DNA of 64,000 bases from a virus, in the IMG/VR virus record IMGVR_UViG_3300045996_002640, positions 1 to 64,000 of that record. The stretch is one strand, 5' to 3'. Made by a program: the position numbers and the translations under genes. Below the pieces are notes generated by a model. That model had not been told where the DNA came from, did no database searches, and saw only the letters and a list, made by a program, of their open reading frames with translations. Shown here piece after piece: positions 1,006 through 59,652 of this stretch (positions are counted from its first letter, which is position 1; every line of letters starts with the position of its first letter).

Positions 1006-1008
1006 GTA

Positions 1009-2021: not shown

Positions 2022-2048
2022 GACCGGATGATGCCCCCGAAATAGGCT

Positions 2049-2152
2049 AGGCCCGGATCGCACCTTGCTGCTTTGATCATTCCGTCCACCCGAGCGCAAG
2101 AGGGCGGTCCTCTTGGGTCTTGGCCTCGAAACTCAAGGTGCGATCCGGGCCT
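2049..2152. repeat. 19-bp perfect inverted repeat enclosing 66 bp
   Basis: AGGCCCGGATCGCACCTTG (2049-2067) pairs with CAAGGTGCGATCCGGGCCT (2134-2152); inner hairpin CAAGAGG-GCGGT-CCTCTTG. Confidence 0.85.
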
Positions 2153-2677
2153 GGCGCCGAGAGTAACTGCCGCGCGCCCAACATGCAATGGGTTGCAAAC
2201 GCCACGCCTAGCACGGCATTCTCCGACCGCTTTGATCAGGTACCGTCCCGCCGCGGACCGCGCGGCACGATCAATCCCAAGCGTAAGCAGGGCCCTCGGC
2301 GGGCCCGGGTCTGCCGCGCGCGAGCGCGACCGCAGCTCCCTGAGGACGGCAGGGATGAAGGGAACCGAGCTCGAGACCATCGAGTTGGGCGCCCACGAGC
2401 CGAGCGTATCCGGGCACCGCGAAACCCCGGTCGTTCGAACCTTGTCCGCACGCTTCATAGGGCGGCCCGATCCCAGGACCCGGGTAGGCAAGGGGGCCAG
2501 CGCGGTGCAACGCGCCAGGCCCGGACGAACATAGGCCGTCAGAGGACCCGGCGATTCCGCCCAGGCCACCGGGTTTAGCAGCGACCGATTCCCCTCTCAC
2601 CCCGACGGGTTTCATCCTCGAACGGGTCTCCCCTCCAAAGCCGGGTAAGCGGCCATAGGAAGGGCCTTGGTCCTGGT

Positions 2678-2746
2678 CTATCTGAAGAAGAACCGAAGAC
2701 CCAAGAGACCGAGGACGAGGAGGAGAAACCAGGTCACGATCGGCAC
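2678..2746 (-). CDS. 22-aa hydrophobic micropeptide (MPIVTWFLLLVLGLLGLRFFFR)
   Basis: GAGGTG Shine-Dalgarno upstream of GTG; composition of a single transmembrane helix; below the ORF-track size cutoff. Confidence 0.5.
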   Translation of the reverse strand: MPIVTWFLLLVLGLLGLRFFFR

Positions 2747-2755
2747 GGTAGCACC

Positions 2756-2818
2756 TCAGCGAGCACGCTCGGCCCAGAGCTGCCGGAAGACGATCCAGGC
2801 GAAGCGAATCAGGGTCAT
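2756..2818 (-). CDS. 20-aa micropeptide (MTLIRFAWIVFRQLWAERAR)
   Basis: ATGA overlap with the upstream stop at 2815. Confidence 0.45.
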   Translation of the reverse strand: MTLIRFAWIVFRQLWAERAR

Positions 2819-2985
2819 GGCTTGTCGAGCTCCATCAGCACTCTCGGCCAGGCGCGCTGCATGCCGTCGAGCAACGCGCGGTCCTCGGGGGTCTTGGCCC
2901 GCAAGCGAGCCTGCAGGAGCTCGGCTCGCGCTTGGGTCAGGAGGAGCTGCTTCTCGAGCGAGAGTCCGGGTGGCGTCCGCATCAT
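2815..2985 (-). CDS. small hypothetical protein
   Basis: ATGA-coupled to 2982..3395. Confidence 0.55.
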   Translation of the reverse strand: MMRTPPGLSLEKQLLLTQARAELLQARLRAKTPEDRALLDGMQRAWPRVLMELDKP

Positions 2986-3395
2986 AGGTGGGCCTCGGTG
3001 AAAATGAGCATGGCGCTCGGGGCGTGTTCGATCAGGAGGTCGACTACTTTCTTGCGATCGGTCTCGAGCCGCAGCACTTCCTCGATCTCGCGCGGCCAGG
3101 TCGTCCGGCATGAGATCGGACCCTTGAGCTCGGAGAGAATGATCCAGGCGTCGAGCCAGGCCTGCTCCTCCTCGCCGAGCGGGTGAGGGACCCGCTTTTG
3201 CCAATCATCGGGATCGGGCCGCCAGGCGACCCAGGTGCCCTCCGCAGCACCGCGGGTGAGAAGCGCGTCCATCGGCGGGTTCACCACCCGGGCGGTCAAG
3301 ACGTCGACTAGGTAAGGGTCTCGCCCCGGAGAACGACGCTTGGCGCTCATGGCGCGCACCTGGTCCCGAAGGGGTTCGCCTCGCCAGACGCGCAT
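2982..3395 (-). CDS. hypothetical protein
   Basis: 137-aa ORF in a coupled run; the start could be 3350. Confidence 0.6.
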   Translation of the reverse strand: MRVWRGEPLRDQVRAMSAKRRSPGRDPYLVDVLTARVVNPPMDALLTRGAAEGTWVAWRPDPDDWQKRVPHPLGEEEQAWLDAWIILSELKGPISCRTTWPREIEEVLRLETDRKKVVDLLIEHAPSAMLIFTEAHL

Positions 3396-3486
3396 GGCGG
3401 GGCTCCACGCTCGCCCAGGGCGACCCAGGCGACCAGAGTCGCCCAGGCCAGCACCGCGAGCACCAGGCCCAACGTCGCGCGGCGAT

Positions 3487-3819
3487 TCATCGGAGGACCT
3501 TGTTCAAGAATTCGATCGCGGCGTCGATCGAATTCCGGTCGTCCTTCACCAGCTCCAGGGTCACGTACGCGAGGTTCCCGCTCAGGACCTCAACCCCGAC
3601 CGCAAAGTTCGCCGAGGGCTGACCGGCCATCGCCATGTGGACCTGCGAGGCGACCGCGTACGCCGCCGCGGCCATCGGGTGGTAGCCATCCCGGCCCGCC
3701 TTGGGCGCCGAGATCTTGATCTGCGGGGTCGTCGTGCCGTAGCGGCTCGTGCCCTTGATCGCCTCGAATCGCATGCCGACCGTCATCACCTTCGCAACCT
3801 GCTCGATAATCGCGTTCAT
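3487..3819 (-). CDS. cassette-encoded hypothetical protein
   Basis: GAGGAG RBS; directly downstream of the repeat copy at 3842. Confidence 0.8.
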   Translation of the reverse strand: MNAIIEQVAKVMTVGMRFEAIKGTSRYGTTTPQIKISAPKAGRDGYHPMAAAAYAVASQVHMAMAGQPSANFAVGVEVLSGNLAYVTLELVKDDRNSIDAAIEFLNKVLR

Positions 3820-3953
3820 CGTGAGCTCCTCGCTCGCCGGCGGCCGCCTTGGCCGTCCTGACGTCCCTACTCTTAGTGCCAGCGCGGCACTAAAGCAACA
3901 CCTGTTTTCGAAGAATCGACCGGGGGGCCCCTCGGCCCCCCGATTCTGGGTCC

Positions 3954-4205
3954 TCAGGCCTTTTCGGCGAATAGGCGCTGCAACCGAGCCAGGGCCGGGA
4001 CCTTCTGCAGCGCTTCGGCCAGCGCCGCGCGAGCCGTGTCGCCTCCGCCGAGGTAGGACGCGTCGCCCGCCTTGAGGCGGGTCGCCAGGGTGACCCGGGC
4101 CGCGTAGCCGCAGCGCGGGTTCAGGGAATCGACCGGCGCGATTCGGACGTCGCCGCCGCTTGCGGTGATCGCCTCGATCGCATCGAGCAGCATCTCGTCG
4201 GTCAT
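3954..4205 (-). CDS. cassette-encoded hypothetical protein
   Basis: MTDEMLLDAIE...; ATGA overlap with the upstream gene. Confidence 0.65.
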   Translation of the reverse strand: MTDEMLLDAIEAITASGGDVRIAPVDSLNPRCGYAARVTLATRLKAGDASYLGGGDTARAALAEALQKVPALARLQRLFAEKA

Positions 4206-4555
4206 CGTGCCCCCCGCGGCTTGATCTCGGCGCGCCAGGTCCAGGGCACCATCTGCTCGCGTGGCCCGTCCTGGCCGTCCAGCGCGAGCATCAAGGCGAC
4301 GTCGCCCAGGGCCTCGACCTCGGCTTCGGCCATCGCGTCCGCGTCCTCGACCAGGCCATCGGGCTCCAGGTAGACCGCGAGGCGGTAGCCCCACCGGTTC
4401 ATGCCGGAATTCTCGATCCGGGCGCTCAGGTTCATCTCCTGGGCCGCCGCGTGAGACTCGAGCATCCCGCCGATTGCCTCGGCGAGCTCAGGCCGGTTGC
4501 ACAGAATCCGGTTCTCGTCCTCGAACAGAATCGCTTCCAGTTTCAGTGTCGTCAT
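4202..4555 (-). CDS. cassette-encoded acidic hypothetical protein
   Basis: MTTLKLEAILF...; GAGG RBS. Confidence 0.7.
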   Translation of the reverse strand: MTTLKLEAILFEDENRILCNRPELAEAIGGMLESHAAAQEMNLSARIENSGMNRWGYRLAVYLEPDGLVEDADAMAEAEVEALGDVALMLALDGQDGPREQMVPWTWRAEIKPRGAR

Positions 4556-4604
4556 CTGGTTCTTCCTCGGTTGGGGTGGGGGGCCCGAAGGCCCCCCGGG
4601 CCGC

Positions 4605-4802
4605 TCAGCGCTTGCTGACCAAGACCTCGAATTCGGTCCCGTCCGCCAGGCGAAGGACGAAGCCTTCGGCGCGCTCATCGCCCTCATGAACGATGGTTCG
4701 GGTCCGGCATTGAACCAGCTCGTCCATCTCGGCGAGGTCGTCCGTCGTGATCGACCCGTCGAAGAGCGCCTTGATCGTCCGTGCCAATTTCGCGTTGTCC
4801 AT
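4605..4802 (-). CDS. cassette-encoded small acidic protein
   Basis: MDNAKLART...; AAGGAG RBS after the repeat at 4827. Confidence 0.75.
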   Translation of the reverse strand: MDNAKLARTIKALFDGSITTDDLAEMDELVQCRTRTIVHEGDERAEGFVLRLADGTEFEVLVSKR

Positions 4803-4853
4803 CTCGAGCTCCTTGCTCTGCCGCGCGGCCGCCTTGGCCGTGCTGACAAGAGA

Positions 4854-4884
4854 CACCTTAGTGCCAGGCTGGCACCATTGCAAC
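4854..4884 (-). promoter_or_regulatory. sigma70-type promoter with a palindromic operator in the spacer (representative copy)
   Basis: -35 TTGCAA, 17-bp spacer, -10 TAAGGT; the palindrome TTAGTGCC-N5-GGCAC(T/C)A overlaps the spacer and the -10. Confidence 0.8.
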
Positions 4885-4933
4885 TCCTTCGTTTGAGAAT
4901 CGACCGAGCCCCCCGAAGGGGGCCCGCCCCGGC

Positions 4934-5239
4934 TCAGTAGTCCTCGCCCTGGATCTGAACCGAGCACCCCGGCGAGGCCTTGAGCTCCTCGACCGAGACC
5001 AGGCCGTTCAGGCCGGCGAGCGCGCGGCCGGCGTACTCGGGGTCCCAGAAAAAAGAGATCTCGTTCTCGCCCTCGTCGTCGCTCGCCACGACGCTCAGAC
5101 CGAACGCGTCAATGATCACCATCCCGCCGAGCTCGCCCACCTGGCACTCGCCGATCAGCGGGGCCGAGCCGTCGGGGAAAGACGTCGCACCCGCGAACCC
5201 ATACCAGTCGGTCTTTGAAAACGGCTTCATCTGGATCAT
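4934..5239 (-). CDS. cassette-encoded acidic hypothetical protein
   Basis: MIQMKPFSKTDWYGFAGA...; AAGGAGG RBS after the repeat at 5262. Confidence 0.8.
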   Translation of the reverse strand: MIQMKPFSKTDWYGFAGATSFPDGSAPLIGECQVGELGGMVIIDAFGLSVVASDDEGENEISFFWDPEYAGRALAGLNGLVSVEELKASPGCSVQIQGEDY

Positions 5240-5367
5240 CGTGGCCTCCTTGGCCGCCGCGGGCCGCCTTGGCGCCGCTGACAAGAAACACCTTAGTGCC
5301 AGGCTGGCACCATTGCAACTCCTTCGTTCGAGAATCGACCAGGCCCCCGAAGGGGCCCTCGGCCACC

Positions 5368-5559
5368 TCACCGCTGAGCCTGCCGCGCTGCTTGATACTC
5401 GACGTCGGTCAGCGCGCGAACCGGCGCGTAATTGGCGAACCGCTTCGAGTAACTACGCGCCCGATTCTCCGCCGAGGCGAGAGCACGTGCCCCGCCAAAG
5501 TATACCAACCGCCCGGTCTCGGGGTCGCTGCCTACGATGCGAAAGGGATAGTGCTTCAC
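5368..5559 (-). CDS. cassette-encoded small protein
   Basis: AAGGAG RBS and GTG start after the repeat at 5583. Confidence 0.75.
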   Translation of the reverse strand: MKHYPFRIVGSDPETGRLVYFGGARALASAENRARSYSKRFANYAPVRALTDVEYQAARQAQR

Positions 5560-5690
5560 GTGAGGGCTCCTTGCCGGTCGCCGGCCGCCTTGGCCGTGCT
5601 GACAAGAAACACCTTAGTGCCAGGCCGGCACCATTGCAACTCCTTCGTTTGAGAATCGACCGGGGGCCCCGAGGCCCCCCGCGCCGGCGC

Positions 5691-5930
5691 TCAGCTCCAG
5701 AAAACCACCGCGCATCCGAGCCCGCGCGCGCCCTGGACTCCCCATGCGCGCATCTCGCCCGCAAGCTCCTCGGCCGCTTCCTCATCCTGGCAGAGGAGCT
5801 TGCCGTCCTCGGCGCCAACCACCCGAGCGTCCGTCGCCGGGCTGTAGGTCAGGTTCGCACCGTAAAGCACGATCTTCATCGTGCCGGTCTCGGAATCCGT
5901 CGTGATCTTCTGGGCGTTGATCTTGCTCAT
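5691..5930 (-). CDS. cassette-encoded small protein
   Basis: MSKINAQK...; AAGGAG RBS after the repeat at 5955. Confidence 0.75.
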   Translation of the reverse strand: MSKINAQKITTDSETGTMKIVLYGANLTYSPATDARVVGAEDGKLLCQDEEAAEELAGEMRAWGVQGARGLGCAVVFWS

Positions 5931-6063
5931 CGGGTGGCTCCTTGCCTCGTCGGGGGCCGCCTTGGCCGCCCTGACAAGAGACACCTTAGTGCCAGGTAGG
6001 CACCAACGCAACTTCTTTTTCTGAGAAAGGTGGGGGACCCCCGAAGGGGCCCCCCGGTTGGGG

Positions 6064-6363
6064 TCAGCCGGCGTGCGGATCTTCCTCGACCTCGAAGCCG
6101 AAGATCTCCGCGATGTCGCCGAGCGTCTGGTCGATCACCTTGATGTGGTCTTGCGTGAAGACCGGTTCAAAGCTTGCGTCCTCGCGCTCGATCTCGACCC
6201 GGAATCTCCAGGGCGAGTCCTGGTCGTTCACCTTGGTGAGCTTGGGAACCAAGCCGTGATCCGAGACGCCCCGCACGAAGCAGATCATCCGGAACACAAC
6301 CTCGGCTTCCTCGAGTGCCTCGGTGTAGACCGCGAACTCACCCTTGGCCAACTTGCCTTTCAT
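6064..6363 (-). CDS. cassette-encoded acidic protein
   Basis: 99-aa ORF downstream of the repeat at 6411. Confidence 0.75.
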   Translation of the reverse strand: MKGKLAKGEFAVYTEALEEAEVVFRMICFVRGVSDHGLVPKLTKVNDQDSPWRFRVEIEREDASFEPVFTQDHIKVIDQTLGDIAEIFGFEVEEDPHAG

Positions 6364-6494
6364 TTCTGTTTTTCTGCCTTCCTCCGGGCGCCTTGCCCGG
6401 CGTCGCTCGCGGCCACCTTGGCCGCGCTGACGTCCCTACTCTTAGTGCCAGCGGGGCACTAATGCAACTTCTTCGTTCGCGAGCCGGTCGATTC

Positions 6495-6686
6495 TCACCG
6501 AGGACTCGCCGTCTCGGCCAGGATCAGAACGACGCCCGCCGATGCCAGAGCCGCGCCGGCCGCCAGAGCGAGCCACCAAGCGCTCGAAGAGTCGGGCCGG
6601 CAGATCTCTCGGAAGGCCCAGGCGCCGCCCCACGAGCCCAGCAGGGCGGCCGCGCGCGCCGCATGGGCGCCCATCTCGAGCTTCAC
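6495..6686 (-). CDS. small membrane protein
   Basis: GTGA-coupled; two hydrophobic segments. Confidence 0.5.
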   Translation of the reverse strand: MKLEMGAHAARAAALLGSWGGAWAFREICRPDSSSAWWLALAAGAALASAGVVLILAETASPR

Positions 6687-6991
6687 AGGTCGACCCGTTC
6701 CAGCGCTTCGAACGCGAGGTCGAGCGGCTCGAATTCGGGGATGACCGGTTCCTTGCGAACCGCGCCGGTGAGCGCGTACTCGCCGAGCTCGTTCCGGACC
6801 AGCCGGCCCGCGTTCGTCCAGTACCGGGTCTCGCGCCAAATCCGGAACTCGCTCAGGCCGGTCGCCGCGGCGAGCTCGGGCTCCTTGAGGCCCTGTCCTG
6901 GCTTGCACTCGAAGCCGCGGATCGCCGCCTCGATCTTCTTGATCGCCATCTCGTGCGCGCGGATGGTCCGCTCCGCGATCTTCTTGGTCAT
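6683..6991 (-). CDS. possible winged-helix-like small protein
   Basis: MTKKIAERT...LKEPELAAATGLSEFRIW...GRLVRNELGEYAL resembles a wHTH pattern. Confidence 0.55.
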   Translation of the reverse strand: MTKKIAERTIRAHEMAIKKIEAAIRGFECKPGQGLKEPELAAATGLSEFRIWRETRYWTNAGRLVRNELGEYALTGAVRKEPVIPEFEPLDLAFEALERVDL

Positions 6992-7266
6992 CGACGTTCT
7001 CCTCGAAGGGCTCGTTCGCGGGCCGCCGCGCGCGCCTGGCGGCGGTCCTGGGCTCGCTTGTTCTCGACCTTGACGATCGCCCGGCAAGCGGCGAGCGCGC
7101 GGTCTCGGGGCATCCCAGCGGCTCGGCCGAGCGCGACCGCGTTCACGTCCTGCTCGCGCTGGAGCTCGGCCTCGATCTCAGCGCGGGTCGCCTCGCGCTT
7201 CTCTTCCTCGCGCGGGCAAACCAGGCGGTCGCAAATTCCCATGTAGTGCGTGCATTCGGCCTTCAT
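6988..7266 (-). CDS. small basic hypothetical protein
   Basis: MKAECTHYMGICD...; GGAG RBS after the hairpin repeat. Confidence 0.65.
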   Translation of the reverse strand: MKAECTHYMGICDRLVCPREEEKREATRAEIEAELQREQDVNAVALGRAAGMPRDRALAACRAIVKVENKRAQDRRQARAAARERALRGERR

Positions 7267-7331
7267 CGGGTAGCTCCTACGACCCGAAGCCCGGGGCTCT
7301 CGCCTCCGGGCCGTGCGGGCCGCTGTCGGCC

Positions 7332-7568
7332 TCAGCCGCGCAGCCTGCGCCGGCGAGGGATGTGGAGCTCGATTGAGTCGATCGCGCGAAAGAGCGGCGC
7401 CGGCGGGCCGAAGTGCGGGGCGAGCTCGACCACCAGGAGCTGGTAGCGACCGTGCTTGTAGACCCAAGCAGCGGTGCTCTCCTCGTCCGTTTCCGGAAGG
7501 CGGAGGTTCAGGGCCTCGATCTCGCGATTGATTTGGTCGGCTTCGGTCTGGGAAATGATGCGCGCCAT
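7332..7568 (-). CDS. cassette-encoded small protein
   Basis: MARIISQTEAD...; AAGGAG RBS after the repeat at 7591. Confidence 0.75.
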   Translation of the reverse strand: MARIISQTEADQINREIEALNLRLPETDEESTAAWVYKHGRYQLLVVELAPHFGPPAPLFRAIDSIELHIPRRRRLRG

Positions 7569-7696
7569 CTTGAGCTCCTTGCTCGCCGCGGGCCGCCTTG
7601 GCCTCGCTGACAAGAAACACCTTAGTGCCAGGCTGGCACCATTGCAACTCCTTCGTTCGAAAAAAGAAGGGGCCCATTTCGAGGCCCCGATCCGGC

Positions 7697-7918
7697 TCAG
7701 CGCTTGCGGTTCCAGCGCCGCCGCGTGACCTCGCGCCATCGGTCGATCATACGATGAACGCTCCGGAGATGGATGCCCATCAGCGGCGCCGCATGGGTCC
7801 GGTTGTCGCCGCAAGCCTCGAGGGCCATCCGGACGTAGTTCCGGTCGACCTCCTCGAGGGTCGGGTCGATGAGCTCGACCCGGCGGCCCTTGATCTCGAT
7901 CGTGACCTTGATCTTCAT
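7697..7918 (-). CDS. stand-alone Fis-family (HTH_8) DNA-binding protein
   Basis: TLEEVDRNYVRMALEACGDNRTHAAPLMGIHLRSVHRMI matches the Fis/NtrC C-terminal HTH pattern. Confidence 0.85.
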   Translation of the reverse strand: MKIKVTIEIKGRRVELIDPTLEEVDRNYVRMALEACGDNRTHAAPLMGIHLRSVHRMIDRWREVTRRRWNRKR

Positions 7919-8145
7919 CGGGCGGCCGTCTTGATGTAGAGAGGCGAGAGAATCCCCACGCTGTAAGCCAGCGATTTGAGAGCGCGCTCTCGAGCGTGAT
8001 ACCAATCCAGCCGGGCGAAACAGGCCTCCGCATCACGCGCGCAAAGCTGCGCACTGCTATGCATCGGGCGGTTCGCGAGCTCGGCGAGCTCGGCTTGAAT
8101 CCGAGCAACCCGCATCGTTTCGTAAGCTTGAGCTTCGGTCACCAT
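7915..8145 (-). CDS. cassette-encoded small protein
   Basis: MVTEAQAYE...; AAGGAGG RBS after the repeat at 8171. Confidence 0.75.
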   Translation of the reverse strand: MVTEAQAYETMRVARIQAELAELANRPMHSSAQLCARDAEACFARLDWYHARERALKSLAYSVGILSPLYIKTAAR

Positions 8146-8237
8146 CTTGGAGGCCTCCTTGGCCGTCGGGCGCCGCCTTGGCGTCCCTGACAAGAATCAC
8201 CTTAGTGCCGGGCTTGGCACTAATGCAACTCCTTCGT

Positions 8238-8519
8238 TCAGAAAAACGACCGGATCGATTCCAGCGCCGCTTCGGCCTCAAACTGGTCGTCCCAGATGTA
8301 GCCGATCGAGTCCTTGGCCGGCGGGTTCTCGAGCCTGAGCGCAGCGCGCTCGGCGGTCCAGAGACGGTCGTCGCCGATCTGGTAGCCGCGGTAGCTCGGG
8401 CTCGGGCGCTTCGCCTGAGCAGCGAGATCGAGCCGGGAACCGAGGAGCTCGAAGCCCTCGTCGCATTCCCAGCCGATCCGCCAGGCGCCGAAGAAAGGGA
8501 CCAGGATCGGGGGGTTCAT
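8238..8519 (-). CDS. hypothetical protein
   Basis: 93-aa ORF between the hairpin repeat and a promoter repeat. Confidence 0.6.
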   Translation of the reverse strand: MNPPILVPFFGAWRIGWECDEGFELLGSRLDLAAQAKRPSPSYRGYQIGDDRLWTAERAALRLENPPAKDSIGYIWDDQFEAEAALESIRSFF

Positions 8520-8575
8520 TCTACGACCCCAAGCCCGCCGAGCTCTCGCCGGGCGGGCCGTTGGGGGCAGGGCTC

Positions 8576-8773
8576 TCAGCGTAGGGCCTGCAGCCGAGCT
8601 TCGAGCTCGCGCACCAGGTTATCCCGGGTGCGTGCCAAGGCCGCCGTGCTTGGCCGTGCAGCCTTGTGGAAGGCAATCGCCATCTCGAGCCGCTCGATCC
8701 GCTGCTTGCGAGCAGCCTCACCGCCAGCCGCCAGCTCCGCCTTCTCGTTCGCGATCTTGTTCGAGTAGTCCAT
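8576..8773 (-). CDS. cassette-encoded small helical protein
   Basis: MDYSNKIANE...; AAGGAG RBS after the repeat at 8796. Confidence 0.75.
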   Translation of the reverse strand: MDYSNKIANEKAELAAGGEAARKQRIERLEMAIAFHKAARPSTAALARTRDNLVRELEARLQALR

Positions 8774-8853
8774 CTTGAGCTCCTTGCTCGTCGCGGGCCG
8801 CCTTGGCGCCGCTGACGTCCCTACTCTTAGTGCCTCCCTGGCACCATTGCAAC

Positions 8854-9357
8854 CTATTCGACTGGGGGCTCGGTCGATTTTTGGACCTTGAAGAGCGGCG
8901 ACTTTCGCCAGGCCTCGCCCGCGTCGGGTTCTTCGCCGAGGGTCTCGTAGAGCGCGCGCGCCGCCTTGCCGACCGTCTCGAGGTCGAGCCCGCGAAGAAT
9001 GAGCTCGAAGCCTCCGTCCGCCTCGTCGTACCGGCAATAGGTGTGGCGGACGCCGCGGGTGATCTCGCTCGCCATGATCCGGTTGGCTTCGTGCGCTTGC
9101 TCGCGCGCCTGAGCCTCGTTCTTCTCGCGAGCTCGCTCGATCAAGAGCTCGGCCGCCTTGGCCGGCGTCGTGACCTTGCGACGAGCCTTGCCGGTGCCTG
9201 AGCGGAACACGCCATCTGCGAAATCGAAGTCGAGCCGGCGCACCAAGCGGCCGCTGATTCGAGCGTCCTCGGGGTACTTGCCCTCGACCACCGCGCCTAG
9301 GGTTGCCGCGCGCGTGAGCGCCTCGGTCATGAAATGAACTTCGTCCAGAATCCGCAT
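8854..9357 (-). CDS. hypothetical protein
   Basis: 167 aa; GGAGG RBS; the stop abuts the -35 of the next repeat. Confidence 0.75.
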   Translation of the reverse strand: MRILDEVHFMTEALTRAATLGAVVEGKYPEDARISGRLVRRLDFDFADGVFRSGTGKARRKVTTPAKAAELLIERAREKNEAQAREQAHEANRIMASEITRGVRHTYCRYDEADGGFELILRGLDLETVGKAARALYETLGEEPDAGEAWRKSPLFKVQKSTEPPVE

Positions 9358-9421
9358 CGGGTCCTCCTACGGCCCGAAGCCCGCCGAGCTCTCGCCGGGC
9401 GGGCCGTTGGGCTCGCGCGTC

Positions 9422-9619
9422 TCAATTGCTGAGGCCGGCGAGGTTCCGGTCGATGATGTGGGTCCCGTAGAGCGGGCTCCAGCTCGCGGCGAGCTCGCCA
9501 TTCGCGGTCTCGATCCGCGCTTCGTAGCCGCGCTTCTTGGCAGCCTTGATCGCGCTCGCGAACGTCTCGGCCTGGATCGGCTGGTGAAAGTCGAAGTTCT
9601 GGCTCTTCACTACGAACAT
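9422..9619 (-). CDS. cassette-encoded small protein
   Basis: AAGGAG RBS after the partial leader repeat near 9645. Confidence 0.75.
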   Translation of the reverse strand: MFVVKSQNFDFHQPIQAETFASAIKAAKKRGYEARIETANGELAASWSPLYGTHIIDRNLAGLSN

Positions 9620-9840
9620 GCTGGGCTCCTTGCCTTTCGAACCGGGCCCGCCTTGGACCCCGGTACCGCCTAAGGCCCGGGTCCGCGCGTCCGCGGCCCG
9701 AGCCCTTGCCTCGGTTGTTCGCCCCTGCGCTGGCTTCCCCGAGGCTTCGGGGCCGGCGCTTACGTTGGCGATCTCAGTCTATCGTGGGTGAGCTCCTTGC
9801 TCGCCGGGCGGCCGCCTTGGCCGTCCTGACAAGTGAGACC

Positions 9841-10434
9841 TTAGTGCCAGGCTGGCACCATTGCAACTCCTTCGTTCGCTTTTTTCTCGAAGGCCTGGTT
9901 TCGCCGGATTACCGCGAGAACCCGCTCGTAGGTCCCGAGCCTCATCTCGGTCTGATCGAACTTGGCGTCGCATCGCCCGCGCGCGTACCCGATGATCGAG
10001 CCGCGAGCCGAGCCGCAGCGCCTGTGCGCCTCGCTGACGCGCTCCGCCGCGAGCAGGGCGGCGTTCGTGGTGGGCCCGAGCTCGAGCCCGGACAAGCCAG
10101 CCCAGGCCTCGGCGCTGAGCCTTCCCTGCTTGAGCTGCCAGACCGAGCGCGAGGTCCAGACGATCAAGCCACGCCGGCGCGAGGGATCACATTCGTCCTT
10201 TGCGCACTGGCCCGCATGGACGCGCCGGTTGAACCGGCTCTCCCACATCCCTTGCATCACCAGGAACGCGGCGAGCTCCTCAGGCGAGCGCTTCCAACTC
10301 GGGGTCTGGTGCGCCGCGGTCGTAATCGCGATTGCGATCGTGGTCATTCGCTCGTGCCGCCCGACCTCGGCCTTGTCTTGGTACCAGGGTTCGAGCGCGA
10401 GCAGCACAGTGAGAACGGCTTCGACGAAAGTCAT
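9841..10434 (-). CDS. exported lysozyme-fold / lytic transglycosylase-like protein
   Basis: Hydrophobic N-terminus; WESRF and SVWQL segments resemble the SLT catalytic Glu motif and motif II. Confidence 0.55.
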   Translation of the reverse strand: MTFVEAVLTVLLALEPWYQDKAEVGRHERMTTIAIAITTAAHQTPSWKRSPEELAAFLVMQGMWESRFNRRVHAGQCAKDECDPSRRRGLIVWTSRSVWQLKQGRLSAEAWAGLSGLELGPTTNAALLAAERVSEAHRRCGSARGSIIGYARGRCDAKFDQTEMRLGTYERVLAVIRRNQAFEKKANEGVAMVPAWH

Positions 10435-10811
10435 GGGCTCGAGCTCGTAGCATGCTGAGGCACCTCGGGTAGCGAGATCGCTTTCACGCACACCACTTCC
10501 CAGCCGAAACCAAGAACCGGAGTCCCTCCGTTCCGTCGACACGCGGGCATCAAGAATGCCTTTCGTCGCTCGATCTCGTCAGTCTCGGCTTTCGCTTTTG
10601 CCGAGCTCGCATTCAGCTTCTCGATCGACTGATCGAGCGAGTGGTTCGCCTTCTCGAGCTCAGCCTCCAGCGCGCGCCGCGAGCGCTGGTACTCGGCTTC
10701 CGAAGCCAGGTACTCGGGGCTCGGCTCGGTAAGCATCTCGCCCGCCATCCATCCGACGATCACCATCGCCGCCGCTGCGCCAATCCAGATCACCACGTTT
10801 TCGCCGTTCAT
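10431..10811 (-). CDS. membrane-anchored coiled-coil protein
   Basis: N-terminal TM helix, coiled coil, C-terminal Cys pair. Confidence 0.7.
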   Translation of the reverse strand: MNGENVVIWIGAAAAMVIVGWMAGEMLTEPSPEYLASEAEYQRSRRALEAELEKANHSLDQSIEKLNASSAKAKAETDEIERRKAFLMPACRRNGGTPVLGFGWEVVCVKAISLPEVPQHATSSSP

Positions 10812-11026
10812 TCTTCCGACCCTTCTCGTCTCGGTAGTTTCGCCACGTCGTTCACCGGCACGCCGCGTCGGCGCACCTCATCGGCTGCGTCATCGAGCCT
10901 CGGGTGCCAGCCGGTCTGCACCGCGTGGCCATCGACCACGATCCGGAACTCGGTCCGGTACCGATGGCCTGAGGACCAGGGGTCCGGGTGAGCTGTCGTC
11001 ACCCGGTATTCGACCACCGGATTCAT
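10808..11026 (-). CDS. small hypothetical protein
   Basis: ATGA-coupled on both sides. Confidence 0.6.
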   Translation of the reverse strand: MNPVVEYRVTTAHPDPWSSGHRYRTEFRIVVDGHAVQTGWHPRLDDAADEVRRRGVPVNDVAKLPRREGSEE

Positions 11027-12186
11027 CGCGAGCGGGCCTCCCACATCTTGCGGGCCGCCGCGAGCCAGCGCGCGCGTTCGTCCTTGCCCTTGGGCATCGG
11101 CGAGATCTCGGCGACCTGGAGCAAGAACTCGGAGAAGCCGTCGAGCTCGCTCGCCTCAGGAGCAGGCGCTGGTGATGGCGCGGGGGTTGGCGCCGGCGGA
11201 GGCTCGGGCGCTGGCGGGGGGATCGGAGGCTGCGCCGGCGGAGGCTCGGGCGGAAGCATCGGCACGCGAGTCTCGGCGACCACCTCAGGCGCTGAGCGCG
11301 CGATCGGGACGCCGCCGGCGAGCGCGCTATCCCGGAACCGGATCAGCATCTCGAGCGGCGTCGCTGGCGAGAGCTTCGCGAATTCGATCAGCGTGCGGTC
11401 CGAGGGGAGCGAGAGGCCGAGCTCGATCAGGGAGACCGCCGATTGATTCGGCACGTCTGGACCGAGGAGCTCGGCGAACTCGTGTTGGTAGAACCCGCCG
11501 GTGATCCTGACCATTTTGAAGAGAGATCCGATCTGAGTCGGCACGCGCTGGTACCGCGTGCGCGTTGCGATCGGTGGGCTCTTGCGAGTTGGCTTCGAGG
11601 GCTCGGCTTTCTTGAAGAGCGCACCACCCGCGCGATCGTCAGCCTCGGTGTACTCGGGCTCGATCTCGGCGATGGCCTCGGCGAGGGTGAGCGTCGGAAC
11701 CGTGGACAGTTTCTGGACGACCGCGACCGGCGGGCTCGGCGCGGGCTCGATCACCGGCGCGCGCGGCGGCTTGGTTGGCTTCTGGAAGGGGTATGGCACA
11801 GGCGCCGGCGAGCGATCGGCCTGGACCGGCTCAGGCTTCGGCGCAGGCTTCTTGGGCAAGGGCGGGGCCTTTGCCGGCTCGGGTGCGATGGCGAGCGGCT
11901 CGACCACGCGGAGCTCGGCTTTCTTCTTCTCGAGCTCGGTCCCGATCGCATCGCCCAAGGTCGCGTTCGGCGAGCTCCGGCGCGGGATCCTGACCACATC
12001 GGTGATGTCGTTCCAGCGGTAGAAATCGACCTTGCCGTTGTCCGAGGTCCGGACCATCGCGCCTTTATGCCCGAGCACCGTCACGATCTCGCCATCGACC
12101 GATTTTGGCGTGGTCTGGTTCCGGAACTTGCGCCGGACCGAGACCTTGCGACCAGGCGAAGGGAGGTCGTTCAGTTTCGGTCTCAT
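11023..12186 (-). CDS. XRE/Cro-CI-type HTH regulator with Pro-rich linkers
   Basis: IGSLFKMVRITGGFYQHEFAELLG...NQSAVSLIELGLSLPSDRTLIEFA matches the HTH_3 pattern. Confidence 0.8.
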   Translation of the reverse strand: MRPKLNDLPSPGRKVSVRRKFRNQTTPKSVDGEIVTVLGHKGAMVRTSDNGKVDFYRWNDITDVVRIPRRSSPNATLGDAIGTELEKKKAELRVVEPLAIAPEPAKAPPLPKKPAPKPEPVQADRSPAPVPYPFQKPTKPPRAPVIEPAPSPPVAVVQKLSTVPTLTLAEAIAEIEPEYTEADDRAGGALFKKAEPSKPTRKSPPIATRTRYQRVPTQIGSLFKMVRITGGFYQHEFAELLGPDVPNQSAVSLIELGLSLPSDRTLIEFAKLSPATPLEMLIRFRDSALAGGVPIARSAPEVVAETRVPMLPPEPPPAQPPIPPPAPEPPPAPTPAPSPAPAPEASELDGFSEFLLQVAEISPMPKGKDERARWLAAARKMWEARSR

Positions 12187-12677
12187 GACGCCTCCGCGCT
12201 GAGGAGCAAGTAGACCCGGTGCTTGGCGATCGGGTGCGCGAGGCGCACGACAACCGCGGTGAAATGGAAAGGGTCGCCGTCGGGGTCCCGCTGCGACGCG
12301 CGGACGATTCCCTCGATCTCGATCTCGGTGTTCGGGGGCCTGAGCGCGTTCGGTTCGAGCTCGTCAATCGCATGCGCTGCCGCGTCCTGAGTCAGGAACG
12401 CCGAGGCGTGCGGCGCCTTGCGCTTCTCGAGCTTGGTGTGAGCGTACTCGGCGTCGCCCTCTTGGAGGATCGAGAACGACTTTGCACCAGCGCGAAGCCC
12501 GCGCGCCGCATGGATGGACCGCCCAAGAAGCTCGGCGAGCTGGACGAGTAGATCGTCCGCGTACTCGTAGCCCTCGCGCGCCGCGCGCCGGATACCTTCC
12601 TCGTGCCACACGGTCTCGACCCAGCGATCGAGCGCGCGCGATTGAATGGTGGGGGTGTTCGTGGGTTGCGGGTTCAT
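12183..12677 (-). CDS. hypothetical protein
   Basis: 164-aa coupled ORF. Confidence 0.7.
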   Translation of the reverse strand: MNPQPTNTPTIQSRALDRWVETVWHEEGIRRAAREGYEYADDLLVQLAELLGRSIHAARGLRAGAKSFSILQEGDAEYAHTKLEKRKAPHASAFLTQDAAAHAIDELEPNALRPPNTEIEIEGIVRASQRDPDGDPFHFTAVVVRLAHPIAKHRVYLLLSAEAS

Positions 12678-12856
12678 GATTCCTCGGTCTCCTCTTCGTA
12701 GCGGCCAGGGACAACGATCTCGACCAGCAAGCCGTCCGCGCGCTGGTGAAGCGCTCGGTGGTTGCCGAGCTTCGTGGGTTCGAGCACCGCAAGCTCGCGG
12801 CGCTGAGCGGTCTGCTTCGCCTTGCCGCGGTAAAGGGTGCGCTTGGTTTCGTTCAT
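12674..12856 (-). CDS. cassette-encoded small protein
   Basis: AAGGAG RBS after the repeat at 12880. Confidence 0.7.
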   Translation of the reverse strand: MNETKRTLYRGKAKQTAQRRELAVLEPTKLGNHRALHQRADGLLVEIVVPGRYEEETEES

Positions 12857-13032
12857 CGGCGAGCTCCTTGCTCGTGGCGGGCCGCCTTGGCGCCGCTCAC
12901 ATCCCTACTCTTAGTGCCAGGCTGGCATTAGAGCAACCGAAATCGGTTCAAAAAGAAGGGCCCCCGGGACCTGCCCGGAAGCCCTGAGAAAGGGGGCCGA
13001 GCCCAGCAGCGGCCGGCCCCCCTGGGTAGATT

Positions 13033-13461
13033 TCAGCCGCCGGCGACCGCGAGGATCTCGCCGAGCAGCTTGTAGACCAGGCGCTTGGCGTCGAGCTCGC
13101 AGAGATGCGCGAGGTTCGCGGCCATGCTGGTCGAGGTCTCGGACCAGGCGCCCTGCCCGAGGACGCGCTCCTCGATATTCCGGCGGTACTCCTTGGCGAC
13201 CTGGGTGGTGATGTCGAGGACCATCTCCTCGCTCAGCGCCTCGGCGTCGACCGTGCGCTCGGTGATGTCCTGGATATCGGCTCGGATGTTATGAATCAGC
13301 TCGAGAACCGATTCGGCCGCCAGCGCGTCCTTCAAGTACCATTCGACCGAGCGCTTGAGCATGCGAGCGTTTGCGGCGTTCGAGGTGAACTCCTGGATCT
13401 TGTTTCCCGCCTCGATCGCCTTGGTCGCGAACATGTGCTCAATCAATTCAGACTTCTTCAT
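13033..13461 (-). CDS. cassette-encoded hypothetical protein
   Basis: AAGGAG RBS after the repeat at 13485. Confidence 0.8.
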   Translation of the reverse strand: MKKSELIEHMFATKAIEAGNKIQEFTSNAANARMLKRSVEWYLKDALAAESVLELIHNIRADIQDITERTVDAEALSEEMVLDITTQVAKEYRRNIEERVLGQGAWSETSTSMAANLAHLCELDAKRLVYKLLGEILAVAGG

Positions 13462-13564
13462 GGTGGGGCTCCTTGCCTGTCGGGGGCCGCCTTGGCCTCC
13501 CTGACAAGAAACACCTTAGTGCCTACCTGGCACCAATGCAACCAATTCGTTCGCGAATCGACAG

Positions 13565-14479
13565 TCAGACGATCCGGCCGAGATCCTGCTCCAGCTCAGC
13601 GAACGCCGCCGCGCCGAGGGCCTCGCGCAGGTTCCCTTCCGAGCTCGCCGAGCGGGTGCGGGCCGCCGGCGTCCGGCCTTGCAGGGCCTGGGTCGCCACC
13701 GGAAGCATGGTTGCGAACAAGCGCTTAACGCCTCGGACGTACAAGTCCTTCGAGGCCGTGTAGTAACCCGCGCGGCCGAGCTCGAGAGCGAAGGCCTCGG
13801 CGTCACCGGCGACTGCGGCGCTCCAACTCGCCGCGTACCGATTGTGGCCGTCGCCATCCGAGTCGACCGCGAGGAATCGAACCACGTCGACAGCGCCATC
13901 CGCGGCGCTCGCGAACGCGCGAAAGTGAGTCTGGACGTGCGGGGGGTCGAACCACACCTCTTTGCCGCCGATGATCTCGGAGCAGCGGAACATGGTCTTG
14001 AGACCACGCCATCCCTTGCCGGCCTTCACGTTGCCGAAATTGAAGTTCCAGATCGCGGTCCAGTTACCCGTCTCGAGCGCGCTCTGCGCGAGCAAGCACG
14101 CGAGCATTGCCGGGCTCGGCGGGTCGCCGGTCACTCGCTCGACCGCCTCGATGAACGCGAGCGCCGCCTGCGCTTTGCTGAGCGGGGTCTTCGCCGCGGG
14201 TACGAAGCCGGTCGCCGGGAGCGCGATCGTCGCGACCGGGGTCTCGAACACCTTGCGCGTGATCGGACCGACGATCCCGTCTTGCTTGAGGCCGTGCGCG
14301 CGCTGCAGCTTCTTGACCGCGTACTCAGTCTCGGCGTCGAAGAGGCCGTCGATATTCCCGGGCGTGTACCCGCGCTCGATCAGCGCGTGTTCGAGCGCCG
14401 CGATATCGGGCCCGTTCATGAAGATTCGTAGGACAGAGCGCCAGGTCGAGGGATCGGCGTACGCGGCAGCGGTGGTCAC
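13565..14479 (-). CDS. endolysin: peptidoglycan-binding domain plus GH73-like glucosaminidase
   Basis: DGLFDAETEYAVKKLQRAHGLKQDGIVGPIT (PG_binding_1); LAQSALETG, NFNFGNVK, FRAF and GYYT motifs. Confidence 0.9.
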   Translation of the reverse strand: MTTAAAYADPSTWRSVLRIFMNGPDIAALEHALIERGYTPGNIDGLFDAETEYAVKKLQRAHGLKQDGIVGPITRKVFETPVATIALPATGFVPAAKTPLSKAQAALAFIEAVERVTGDPPSPAMLACLLAQSALETGNWTAIWNFNFGNVKAGKGWRGLKTMFRCSEIIGGKEVWFDPPHVQTHFRAFASAADGAVDVVRFLAVDSDGDGHNRYAASWSAAVAGDAEAFALELGRAGYYTASKDLYVRGVKRLFATMLPVATQALQGRTPAARTRSASSEGNLREALGAAAFAELEQDLGRIV

Positions 14480-14491
14480 GCGCCGAGCATG

Positions 14492-15160
14492 TCACTCGGG
14501 CGTACGCTTCGGCAAGTCTGGACACGCCTTTCGACTCTTCCAAGTCGGAGCGCTGACGCGAGACTTCGGCTTCGTTGGGTCCTCGAGCGAGCCCGCCTCC
14601 CACACGATCTGGATCTCGCGTGCCTCGGCGAAGTCGGCGTCCCAGCCTTGCCGCTTCGCCTGATCGGCGAGCACCAACACGCGGCACGCGAGCGCTGCAG
14701 TCCGCATCTCTTCACGCTCGAGCCGCTCGAGTAGCTTTGCCCGCGCGTCACTCTGCGCCTTGTCCTTGGCCTGAATGTCCGCGCGAATCCCGTCGAGTGA
14801 CGGAGCGAGGAGCCGCTCCATCCCGAGACTTCCGATTGCCGTGCCGGCGCCGCCGCTCAGGATGAACGGCAGCAGGAACTTCGCGAGCGCCGGTGCACGC
14901 GTTCGCACCACCTTGCCGAGCTCGCGGTCTGCCTCGGCGTGGATCGAGACCGGCGATTGCTCGACCTTGGGCGCCCGACGCTGCTGCTCCGCTGCGATGA
15001 TCTGGAGCTCGCGGTCTCGGCGAGCGTCGTCCTCGAGCACGAGCGGATCGTCGTTGCTCCTGGACGGCATGCGCCCCCGAGGAGGGGGCACCACCGGCGT
15101 GTTGCGTTCGCTCTTGGTGGGCAAGGTCGCAGGGCCAGACCCTATCTCAAGATCGCGCAA
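14492..15160 (-). CDS. lysis-cassette membrane/coiled-coil protein (spanin- or holin-like)
   Basis: One TM segment followed by a coiled coil and two Cys; adjacent to the endolysin. Confidence 0.5.
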   Translation of the reverse strand: MRDLEIGSGPATLPTKSERNTPVVPPPRGRMPSRSNDDPLVLEDDARRDRELQIIAAEQQRRAPKVEQSPVSIHAEADRELGKVVRTRAPALAKFLLPFILSGGAGTAIGSLGMERLLAPSLDGIRADIQAKDKAQSDARAKLLERLEREEMRTAALACRVLVLADQAKRQGWDADFAEAREIQIVWEAGSLEDPTKPKSRVSAPTWKSRKACPDLPKRTPE

Positions 15161-15536
15161 GCTGCGCGACGAAGCGCGCGAGGTGTTGCAAATCGGCGCT
15201 CTTCGAAAAGACCGGATAGTCCGCGTCGAAGATCATTCTGCCAGTGCGGTGAGCGGTCACAAGTACTCGCCGAATCGCTGGCCACCGAGTGCCAACCGCC
15301 GCGAGCATGCGCGAACCGGCGAGCCCAGGCATTCGCTCGTCCGCGACGATGACCGAAGTCTCGTCAGCGCAGCCCTCGAGGAACGTCAGCGCGACGAGCG
15401 CGTTCGGTACCGGTACGACCTCGAGGCCTTGCTGCTGGAGCAAGCGAGCGAAGAGCACGCGGAACGCTTCATCGTCATCAACGAGGAGCGCGAGCCGGCG
15501 CGGAGTCTGGCTCAGCTGCTGGGTGTTGGGGGGCAT
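15147..15536 (-). CDS. stand-alone response-regulator receiver (CheY-like) protein
   Basis: LLVDDD, IVADERMPGLAG (phospho-acceptor Asp), VLVTA and FSK motifs. Confidence 0.9.
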   Translation of the reverse strand: MPPNTQQLSQTPRRLALLVDDDEAFRVLFARLLQQQGLEVVPVPNALVALTFLEGCADETSVIVADERMPGLAGSRMLAAVGTRWPAIRRVLVTAHRTGRMIFDADYPVFSKSADLQHLARFVAQLARS

Positions 15537-59606: not shown

Positions 59607-59652
59607 AGGATGCCCATCTTAGTGCCAAGTGCAACACCTTTTTGGCACTAAG
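59607..59652 (-). promoter_or_regulatory. promoter with two operator half-sites flanking the -35
   Basis: CTTAGTGCCA (59618) / TGGCACTAAG (to 59652); -35 TTGCAC, 16-bp spacer, -10 CATCCT. Confidence 0.7.

What the first reader, a model, noticed from the sequence alone, without database searches (positions are those of the whole stretch)
3487..13565. Array of 12 gene cassettes, each headed by the same 58-bp promoter-operator-leader module
Seen: all 12 copies keep the same length (one has +1 bp) and layout. On the minus strand this is an optional GC hairpin (often cUUCGg), TTGCAA-17 bp-TAAGGT/TAAGAG, GTCAG-N7-CCAAGGCGGCC, usually an AAGGAG RBS, then one to several mostly small unrelated ORFs. 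Upstream ORFs run up to or into the repeat: 9841..10434 ends inside a copy, and the stops at 8854 and 8238 abut copies, as expected at recombination junctions. Established: PeSL (promoter-early stem-loop) elements of T4-like phages mediate shuffling of early genes. Inference: an integrase-independent, co-regulated and expandable cassette array of host-takeover or anti-defence genes.
Basis: partly seen in the sequence, partly recalled or inferred. Interest (0 to 1): 0.85.

Follow-up and report, generated by a model that had tools for sequence, protein, structure and literature searches.

The report
Twelve repeated promoter-leader modules in phage
An uncultured 94-kb tailed phage carries twelve near-identical terminator, promoter, operator and structured-leader modules, each heading a small set of unknown genes, much like the early-gene cassettes known from T4-like phages and SPO1; whether they shuffle genes is unproven.

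Summary
Twelve same-strand copies of one module lie at 3.8-13.5 kb. None is expected by chance, and there are no other copies in the 93.8-kb virus record.

Each copy has TTGCAA, a 17-nt spacer and TAAG(G/A)(T/G). A dyad, TTAGTGCC-N5-GGCACTAA, covers the spacer and the -10. A ~45-nt leader follows, then AAGGAG and ATG. Seven copies also have a GC-rich terminator hairpin just upstream.

New here:
- The leader folds into two hairpins with AAGGN pentaloops, the second holding the ribosome-binding site. Compensatory changes and strand-specific G-U pairs support this, so the module is transcribed on the minus strand.
- Module blocks are mosaic (all four combinations of two blocks occur), so copies have exchanged sequence.

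The array follows the endolysin in a one-directional myophage genome. It encodes about 27 mostly unknown proteins, including one Fis-type HTH, one weak XRE-like HTH and one SLT-like protein.

In the nearest known relatives the capsid and sheath proteins are 94% and 91% identical. Array proteins are 33%, 44% or have no homologue.

Best reading: co-regulated, probably early, transcription units of PeSL / SPO1-takeover type. Cassette mobility could not be tested because the relatives' DNA could not be fetched. This is a new variant of a known kind, of moderate interest.

The parts
3487..13598 (-). Whole array: 12 transcription units, about 27 ORFs, all on the minus strand, directly downstream of the endolysin gene
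13459..13541 (-). Module 1 (-35 to ATG), type A; heads ORF 13033-13461 (142 aa, four-helix bundle)
12854..12985 (-). Module 2, type B, with terminator hairpin 12957-12985. Heads a six-gene operon, 12674-12856 through 9841-10434, which includes the XRE-like ORF 11023-12186 and the SLT-like ORF 9841-10434
9779..9866 (-). Module 3, type A. It has no start codon after its ribosome-binding site, and the upstream ORF ends inside its -10
9612..9672 (-). Promoterless partial leader (CCAAGGCGG hairpin plus GGC-AAGGA-GCC) in front of ORF 9422-9619; a degraded half-module
   Evidence: 20 bits, E=0.05
8771..8852 (-). Module 4, type B; heads ORFs 8576-8773 and 8238-8519
8143..8228 (-). Module 5, type A, dyad centre N6; heads ORF 7915-8145 and the Fis-type HTH ORF 7697-7918
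7566..7688 (-). Module 6, type A, with terminator hairpin 7669-7688; heads four ORFs from 7332-7568 to 6495-6686
6361..6467 (-). Module 7, type B, perfect 8-bp dyad arms, longer and aberrant leader; heads ORF 6064-6363
5928..6055 (-). Module 8, type A, with terminator hairpin 6032-6055 (TTCG loop); heads ORF 5691-5930
5557..5686 (-). Module 9, type A, with hairpin 5657-5686; heads ORF 5368-5559 (GTG start)
5237..5358 (-). Module 10, type A, with hairpin 5341-5358 (TTCG loop); heads ORF 4934-5239
4800..4926 (-). Module 11, type A, with hairpin 4905-4926 (TTCG loop); heads ORFs 4605-4802, 4202-4555 and 3954-4205
3817..3943 (-). Module 12, type B, perfect dyad, with hairpin 3920-3943. Heads ORF 3487-3819 and probably the downstream genes, since no later terminator or module was seen
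9359..9424 (-). Second repeat family: intercistronic GC hairpin plus GTAGGAG between the first and second gene of a unit. Other copies at 8513-8578 and 7268-7293
   Evidence: (D10, D13)
59618..59652 (-). Extra operator half-sites outside the array: CTTAGTGCC-N17-GGCACTAAG, just upstream of a lipoprotein-like gene

Best explanation
The array is a block of twelve independent, co-regulated transcription units of accessory genes in a lytic-looking myophage. They are probably early genes.

Each unit starts with one composite module, made of these parts in order:
1. In 7 of 12 copies, the intrinsic terminator of the preceding unit.
2. A promoter of -35/17-nt/-10 layout: TTGCAA, then TAAGGT, or (T)AAGAGT in the four type-B copies.
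3. A 21-bp dyad, TTAGTGCC-N5-GGCACTAA, lying over the spacer and the -10. I read it as the operator of a dimeric DNA-binding protein that switches all twelve promoters together, most simply as a repressor.
4. A transcript that begins at or near the G of GTCAG and folds at once into a 5'-terminal stem-loop with an invariant AAGGC pentaloop.
5. A second small hairpin that presents the AAGGA(G) ribosome-binding site in its loop, 5-8 nt before the start codon.

The 5' hairpin is inferred to stabilise the mRNA. Because its loop does not vary, it may also bind a common RNA-binding factor.

The copies stay alike through functional constraint plus exchange of sequence between copies.

Status of each step:
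- Shown: the repeat, the layout, the RNA pairing pattern, the mosaic blocks, and the divergence of the gene content.
- Inferred: which RNA polymerase form reads the promoter, early timing, repression at the dyad, and the role of the leader.
For: Repeat and layout.

RNA-level structure:
- The consensus fold has 13 pairs, 5 of them with compensatory changes (pair 11/34 CG6:GC5; 41/51 AU6:GC6; 8/36 compensates the single GTGAG copy).
- 96% of cells are paired, against 86% after shuffling and 28-67% when slid.
- U-G pairs at 7/37 and 5/40 work only on the minus-strand transcript.
- All 10 leaders folded singly give this same structure as the minimum-energy fold, at ensemble frequency 0.65-0.93.

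Terminators upstream of 7 of 12 copies.

A strong AAGGAG ribosome-binding site and an ATG/GTG follow 11 of 12 copies, and IMG called the same genes for all 17 array ORFs checked.

Dyad: perfect 8-bp arms in copies 3847 and 6416, an invariant right arm, and further dyad copies outside the array at 88648 and 59618/59644.

Candidate regulators:
- ORF 7697-7918 matches HTH_8 at 29 bits, above the Pfam cut-off of 22.
- ORF 11023-12186 is XRE-like, below threshold.
- A weak wHTH ORF lies beside the 88648 dyad.

Position: the whole genome is read in one direction. The array follows tail and endolysin genes, so on a circular map it comes before the replication genes.

No T7-type RNA polymerase was found (though the control genomes did not match either).

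The PeSL and SPO1 precedents come from PMC2839356, PMC4122927 and PMC6873191.
Against: - The hexamers match the E. coli sigma-70 consensus in only 4/6 and 3/6 positions, and the consensus scan reports no promoter in 1-16000.
- The host is unknown.
- The apparent -10 may be conserved only because it is part of the dyad.
- The phage encodes a sigma-like protein at 83325-83915 (19 bits, below threshold), which could read these sites instead of the host sigma.
- One operon carries an SLT-like protein and a membrane coiled-coil protein, which suggests lysis or late functions rather than takeover.
- There are no transcript data.
- No regulator has been linked to the dyad.
Confidence: 0.6

Rival explanations
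1. The modules are, as in PeSLs, the actual crossover points for cassette gain, loss and exchange. Homologous recombination between direct-repeat modules would excise units as circles and insert foreign units. On this reading the array is an expandable gene-shuffling platform, and that role explains the repeat's conservation.
For: - All 12 copies are direct repeats 321-4084 bp apart, with exact shared stretches of 41-56 nt.
- The phage encodes a RecA-like recombinase.
- All four combinations occur of the discriminator block (A/B) with the 19-nt stem block: copies 5267, 8801/12885, 9815 and 3847. The same holds for the left dyad arm against the discriminator. So copies have recombined.
- There are degraded or odd junctions: a module with no ORF start, a promoterless half-leader at 9612-9672, and an ORF fused into a module.
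- Array genes are 33-44% identical to, or absent from, relatives whose MCP and sheath are 94% and 91% identical.
- PeSL mini-circles are documented in T4-like phages (PMC2839356).
Against: - No relative's DNA could be compared, so no indel has been placed at a module.
- Mosaic blocks could arise from gene conversion without any movement of cassettes.
- Two of four structural proteins checked are also below 90% identity to the relatives, so the divergence is not confined to the array.
- No paralogous cassettes exist within the array.
- Distant relatives (MCP about 50% identical) have no such module.
Confidence: 0.35
2. The modules are promoters for a phage-directed transcription machinery, not host early promoters. 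The reader would be the phage sigma-like protein, or host polymerase plus a phage activator bound at the dyad. The units would then be middle or late genes.
For: - The match to the sigma-70 hexamers is poor.
- GGCACTAAG is invariant, always in the same orientation, and overlaps the -10.
- A sigma-like ORF lies at 83325-83915.
- Lysis-like gene content sits next to the endolysin.
- T4-like phages have middle-promoter versions of PeSLs, called PmSLs (PMC4122927).
Against: - The motif is absent upstream of the replication, structural and lysis genes, where a phage-specific promoter would be expected.
- The 17-nt spacing and the TTGCAA element fit a housekeeping sigma.
- A dyad placed over the spacer and -10 is a usual position for a repressor, not an activator (established knowledge of bacterial promoters).
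- The sigma-like match is below the family cut-off.
Confidence: 0.2
3. The repeats are a mobile element (a MITE-like or integron attC-like site) that merely happens to lie between genes.
For: It is a dispersed direct repeat containing an internal dyad.
Against: - There is no integrase.
- Every copy is in the same orientation and at a fixed distance from a ribosome-binding site and start codon.
- There are no terminal inverted repeats or target duplications.
- The leader shows RNA-type covariation.
- The motif occurs nowhere else in IMG/VR or in the metagenome contigs searched.
Confidence: 0.03

Closest known systems
PeSL (promoter-early stem-loop) elements of T4-like phages (Arbiol et al. 2010, PMC2839356; Comeau et al. 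2014, PMC4122927)
   Same: Composite unit of a stem-loop terminator, a -35/N17/-10 promoter, a ribosome-binding site and a start codon. Many direct copies cluster among genes of unknown function in a variable region. Degraded half-copies occur. The copies are long enough for homologous recombination.
   Different: - The phage lineage is unrelated (lambda-gpE-type capsid, T7-like terminase, 66% GC).
- The copies are much more uniform.
- There is an added 21-bp dyad over the spacer and -10, and a conserved two-hairpin 5' leader with covariation.
- There is no AT-rich upstream tract.
- Recombination at the modules and promoter activity have not been demonstrated here.
Host-takeover module of Bacillus phage SPO1 (Stewart et al. 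1998, cited in PMC6873191)
   Same: A compact block of about two dozen small, mostly unknown genes arranged in about a dozen operons, each with its own promoter (26 genes per PMC6873191).
   Different: - SPO1's module lies in the terminal redundancy, and its early timing and toxicity have been tested.
- Here the position relative to the genome ends, the timing and the functions are unknown.
- SPO1's promoters are not embedded in a ~100-nt repeat with an operator and a leader.
Start-associated sequences (SAS/ESAS) of Cluster K mycobacteriophages (Pope et al. 2011, PMC3203893)
   Same: A conserved motif lies immediately upstream of many start codons, often preceded by an inverted repeat with a variable spacer, all in one orientation. 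The function is unknown but is presumed to be translational or regulatory.
   Different: - SAS sites are dispersed over the genome and are not tied to a promoter or terminator.
- Here the leader is fused to a promoter-operator unit and is confined to one 10-kb array.
- There is no sequence similarity.

Membership tests
PeSL elements (T4-like phages) | Stem-loop (terminator) immediately upstream of the promoter | tested here: met
   GC-rich hairpins lie upstream of 7 of the 12 copies; two have classical T-tracts
PeSL elements (T4-like phages) | Sigma-70-like early promoter, -35 N17 -10 | tested here: inconclusive
   TTGCAA-N17-TAAGGT or TAAGAG matches the consensus at 4/6 and 3/6 positions. This fails the consensus scan. 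The spacing is right. No activity data
PeSL elements (T4-like phages) | Shine-Dalgarno sequence and start codon of the downstream gene at the 3' end of the element | tested here: met
   AAGGAG (GAGGAG in copy 3847; in copy 6416 an SD-like GGAGGAAGG further downstream in its longer leader) and an ATG/GTG in 11 of 12 copies
PeSL elements (T4-like phages) | Located in hyperplastic regions next to ORFans that differ between close relatives | tested here: inconclusive
   No Pfam or PHROG hits for nearly all ORFs. Identity to relatives is 33%, 44% or none, against 91-94% for core proteins. Gene order in the relatives was not seen
PeSL elements (T4-like phages) | Indel breakpoints at the elements; mini-circle formation | not testable with these tools
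Relatives were not returned by the locus scans. No sequencing runs were listed
PeSL elements (T4-like phages) | Host phage belongs to the T4-like myoviruses | tested here: not met
   T7-like large terminase, lambda-gpE-type capsid family on homologues, and no capsid match to any cultured phage
Integron cassette array | Tyrosine integrase and attC sites at the 3' ends of promoterless cassettes | tested here: not met
   No PF00589 match in the record, which is 83% complete. The repeats lie at 5' ends and carry a promoter and ribosome-binding site
Sigma-54 promoter (TGGCAC-N5-TTGCW) | GG and GC elements exactly 10 nt apart | tested here: not met
   TGGCAC is present, but no GC lies at the required distance on either strand (read directly)

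The most novel reading that the evidence does not exclude
A PeSL-type 'plug-in socket' has evolved independently in a phage lineage unrelated to T4. Any gene that lands between two modules by recombination would automatically acquire a terminator, a promoter under one shared operator, a protein-binding 5' hairpin and a presented ribosome-binding site. It would then be co-regulated at three levels with the rest of the array. The invariant AAGGC and AAGGA pentaloops would be paired targets of one RNA-binding regulator, in the manner of CsrA-type or T4 RegB-type control of early mRNAs (comparison from memory).
Probability: 0.25. Interest if true: 0.65.

Novelty: new variant of a known kind. Interest (0 to 1): 0.45.

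Why it matters
Composite terminator-promoter repeats that flank genes of unknown function are the proposed engine of accessory-gene turnover in T4-like phages. Finding the same architecture in an unrelated, uncultured, high-GC myophage lineage suggests it is a general solution rather than a T4 peculiarity. This one is more uniform than the T4 elements and has a built-in operator and a covarying 5' leader.

The module is also a compact, self-contained expression unit. It offers a clean system for asking how a phage co-regulates many unrelated genes at both the transcription and the mRNA level. The roughly 27 proteins of unknown function that it drives are candidates for host-interaction functions.

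Tried and rejected
**Searches for the module elsewhere**
- The full module pattern, the promoter core and the leader core were scanned in IMG/VR. Only single chance hits came back.
- The promoter core in the metagenome contigs gave none.
- Megablast of the array against cultured phages gave none.

**Attempts to reach relatives' DNA**
- The search for related loci was run with the endolysin, with ORF 11023-12186, with its homologue and with their alignment. No relatives were returned from the viral or metagenome collections.
- The look-up of sequencing runs: none was listed, so read laying could not be used.

**Distant relatives**
- Relatives with MCP about 50% identical (52-73 kb, one a provirus in a Polyangiaceae MAG) have no comparable repeated 12-mers, no homologue of ORF 11023-12186 and no match to the leader model.

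**RNA and protein annotation**
- Rfam found no family in 1-16000.
- Pfam, PHROGs and NCBIfam on the array ORFs gave almost nothing. In one search one ORF was given in the wrong frame (4605-4801). It was repeated as 4605-4802, with no hit.
- The AlphaFold model of ORF 13033-13461 is a four-helix bundle (pLDDT 84) with no informative PDB match.
- The model of the HTH_8 ORF was poor and matched nothing.
- All-against-all BLASTP of the array proteins found no paralogues.

**Readings rejected**
- A sigma-54 promoter (wrong spacing).
- An N4-type hairpin promoter (no giant virion RNA polymerase gene in the record; the largest ORF is 890 aa).
- An integron.
- A terminator role for the dyad. The T-tract occurs only in type-A copies, and the dyad lies downstream of the -35.


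Full report
**1. Observation**

The repeat is real and striking.
- The repeat finder reports families of 10-11 copies of 74-78 nt.
- A 25-base-specified pattern finds 12 copies, all in one orientation, against 0.00 in shuffles.
- The whole 93,801-bp IMG/VR record has only these 12. The record is linear, CheckV puts it at 83% complete, and the window is its first 64 kb.

Printed in register on the minus strand, each copy reads as follows:
- Optional GC hairpin.
- (TCGATTCTC)AACGAAGGAG-like segment.
- TTGCAA-like hexamer.
- T(G/A)GTGCC-N5-GGCAC.
- TAAGGT plus GTYTCTT (type A, 8 copies), or TAAGAG plus TAGGGAC (type B, 4 copies).
- GTCAG.
- 7 nt, then AAGGC, then 7 nt.
- A short linker.
- AAGGAG.
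- 5-8 nt, then ATG or GTG.

Only copy 8176 has one extra base.

**2. Genome context**

A GC3-based gene call shows essentially every gene on the minus strand. PHROG and Pfam matches give the following order in the direction of transcription:
- DnaB-like helicase, Dam methylase, primase.
- MoxR/VWA, PolB, a RecA-like protein.
- T7-like large terminase.
- Portal, protease, major capsid, sheath, tape measure, baseplate, fibres.
- Endolysin (13565-14479; PG_binding_1 plus glucosaminidase).
- The array.
- More small genes, then the end of the contig.

On a circular map the array therefore sits between the late/lysis genes and the replication genes, which is the usual place for early genes.

No integrase was found. 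No T7-type RNA polymerase was found either, though that search has no positive control. A sub-threshold sigma-like ORF lies at 83325-83915.

The phage has no close cultured relative.

**3. The module as DNA**

The dyad is longer than first described. It reads TTAGTGCC-N5-GGCACTAA.
- The arms are perfect in copies 3847 and 6416.
- The right arm, GGCACTAAG, is invariant and overlaps the putative -10.
- The left arm is degenerate (TGGTGCC) in most type-A copies.

I confirmed three:
- An inverted pair with a 17-bp gap at 59618/59644, upstream of a lipoprotein-like gene.
- A lone half-site at 48124, which could be chance (0.64 expected per genome).
- A full N5 dyad at record position 88648, next to a weak winged-helix ORF. 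I found this one myself.

A dyad over the spacer and -10 is most simply an operator for a dimeric repressor.

Candidate binders:
- The Fis-type HTH protein 7697-7918 (HTH_8, 29 bits against a cut-off of 22).
- The proline-rich, XRE-like 11023-12186. Its homologue scores 20.7 bits against a cut-off of 27; the protein itself scores 12.5 bits.
- ORF 6683-6991 (weak PHROG hit).
- The ORF at 88693-88965.

None of these is linked to the dyad by evidence.

The hexamers are only moderately sigma-70-like, and the consensus scan calls no promoter. The identity of the polymerase form therefore remains an inference.

**4. The module as RNA**

This is the main new result. RNAalifold on the 12 leaders predicts two hairpins:
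- H1: GUC(A)G-S..GSCC[AAGGC]GGSC..S-C(G/C)(A/G)C.
- H2: (G/A)(G/C)C[AAGGA]G(C/G)(C/U), with the ribosome-binding site in the loop.

Pair counting gives these figures:
- 96.2% of cells are paired, against 86.3 +/- 1.7% after shuffling (0 of 500 shuffles reach it) and 28-67% when the partners are slid.
- Five pairs carry double changes: 11/34 CG6:GC5; 41/51 AU6:GC6; 42/50 GC10:CG2; 14/26 with one CG; and 8/36.
- At 8/36, the only copy with GTGAG instead of GTCAG has the compensating GAC-to-CAC change.

Pairs 7/37 and 5/40 alternate U-A and U-G. That is tolerated only in RNA of the minus-strand sense.

Each of 10 leaders folded alone gives this same structure as its minimum-energy fold, at ensemble frequency 0.65-0.93.

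So the region from GTCAG onward functions as RNA, which independently implies a transcription start just upstream. With the -10 as assigned, the G of GTCAG lies 7-8 nt downstream of it. That would place H1 at the very 5' end of the mRNA.

A 5'-terminal stem-loop is a known mRNA stabiliser in E. coli (established knowledge). The invariance of the AAGGC loop suggests, in addition, sequence-specific recognition.

Rfam has no matching family. A covariance model of the leader finds only the 12 copies plus a promoterless partial copy at 9612-9672, and nothing in distant relatives.

**5. Signs of rearrangement inside the array**

- Two multi-base blocks assort independently. The discriminator (A or B) and the 19-nt H1 stem block (CGGCGCC..GGCCCGC or GACGGCC..GGCCGCC) occur in all four combinations: copies 5267, 8801/12885, 9815 and 3847.
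- The left dyad arm also assorts against the discriminator: 8176 is TAG with A, and 8801 is TGG with B.
- Recurrent mutation is an unlikely cause of whole-block sharing, so the copies have exchanged sequence.
- Exact shared stretches reach 56 nt (7596 with 5267) and 41 nt in several pairs. The phage has a RecA-like gene.
- Copy 9815 lacks a start codon. About 165 nt further on lies a half-module without a promoter, in front of ORF 9422-9619.
- ORF 9841-10434 is fused into a module.
- A second repeat, an intercistronic hairpin, occurs three times.
- There are no paralogous proteins in the array.

**6. Relatives**

The capsid protein has 291 homologues. The nearest cluster (94% identity) is seen on 49 JGI contigs of up to 95.7 kb. 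The sheath is 91% identical.

The array proteins compare as follows:
- ORF 13033-13461: 33% by BLASTP (38% in the phmmer listing) to its only homologue, which lies on the same 49 contigs.
- ORF 11023-12186: 44%.
- ORF 8854-9357: no homologue at all among 5.8 billion proteins.

All 17 array proteins looked up are alone in their 90% clusters. However, so are two of the four structural proteins checked, so that particular fact is weak.

The relatives' DNA could not be obtained. Whether differences map to the modules is therefore untested.

Distant relatives (capsid about 50% identical) are 52-73 kb phages. One is a provirus in a Polyangiaceae MAG contig. None has such a module.

**7. Gene content**

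Almost all of the ORFs are unknown. The exceptions are:
- The HTH proteins listed above.
- An SLT-like fold for 9841-10434 (Atlas structural neighbours, TM 0.65-0.84; a lead only).
- A membrane-anchored coiled-coil protein, 10431-10811.

Nothing supports or excludes anti-defence roles.

**8. Verdict**

The best reading is a set of twelve co-regulated transcription units, probably early, built on a composite terminator-promoter-operator-leader module. This is the same kind of thing as PeSL-flanked ORFan clusters and the SPO1 takeover module, but in an unrelated lineage and with two extra layers: a shared operator and a covarying two-hairpin leader.

Sequence exchange between copies is shown. 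Cassette mobility is plausible but unproven.

Noticed in passing
window 1413-1450, 50997-51040, 54441-54480, 57820-57860; record 66318-66360 and 68351-68395: The dispersed 14-bp palindrome GTTGGGCGCCCAAC is in fact the coding sequence of a shared C-terminal peptide (..LGAQLDxMELP-stop). It ends several otherwise unrelated small proteins, and the stop overlaps the next gene's start. Earlier notes of this scan describe the same tag.
   Followed up: partly
window 9359-9424, 8513-8578, 7268-7293 (minus strand): Three copies of a second repeat. It is a long GC hairpin (loop GCGAGAGC) followed by GTAGGAG and a start codon, lying between the first and second gene of three units. It may be an RNA-processing or stabilising site.
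   Followed up: partly
record G000 88640-88680 (locus L221 about 5240-5280): A full copy of the operator dyad (CTAGTGCC-ACTGA-GGCACTAA) lies just after a 90-aa weak winged-helix ORF (88693-88965). It precedes about 350 nt with no convincing ORF.
   Followed up: partly
record G000 83325-83915 (locus L222 1186-1776, minus strand): A 196-aa ORF with a sub-threshold sigma-70 region-2 match (19 bits). It is a possible phage sigma factor, located between the PolB and MoxR/VWA genes.
   Followed up: partly
window 9841-10434 (minus strand): A 197-aa protein with an SLT-like (lytic transglycosylase) predicted fold according to Atlas neighbours. Its last 11 residues are encoded by the next promoter module.
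   Followed up: partly
window 48502-48579 (minus strand): ARAGORN calls a tRNA-Ile with the unusual anticodon AAT. Another note of this scan discusses odd tRNA-like RNAs at this place.
   Followed up: no
locus L219 (MAG contig DATAZL010000008.1, Polyangiaceae) = provirus G001: A distant relative (capsid 48% identical) is integrated in a 155-kb Polyangiaceae MAG contig. This is the only host hint for the lineage. Record G001 ends in a 15-bp tandem repeat array (73194-73420).
   Followed up: no
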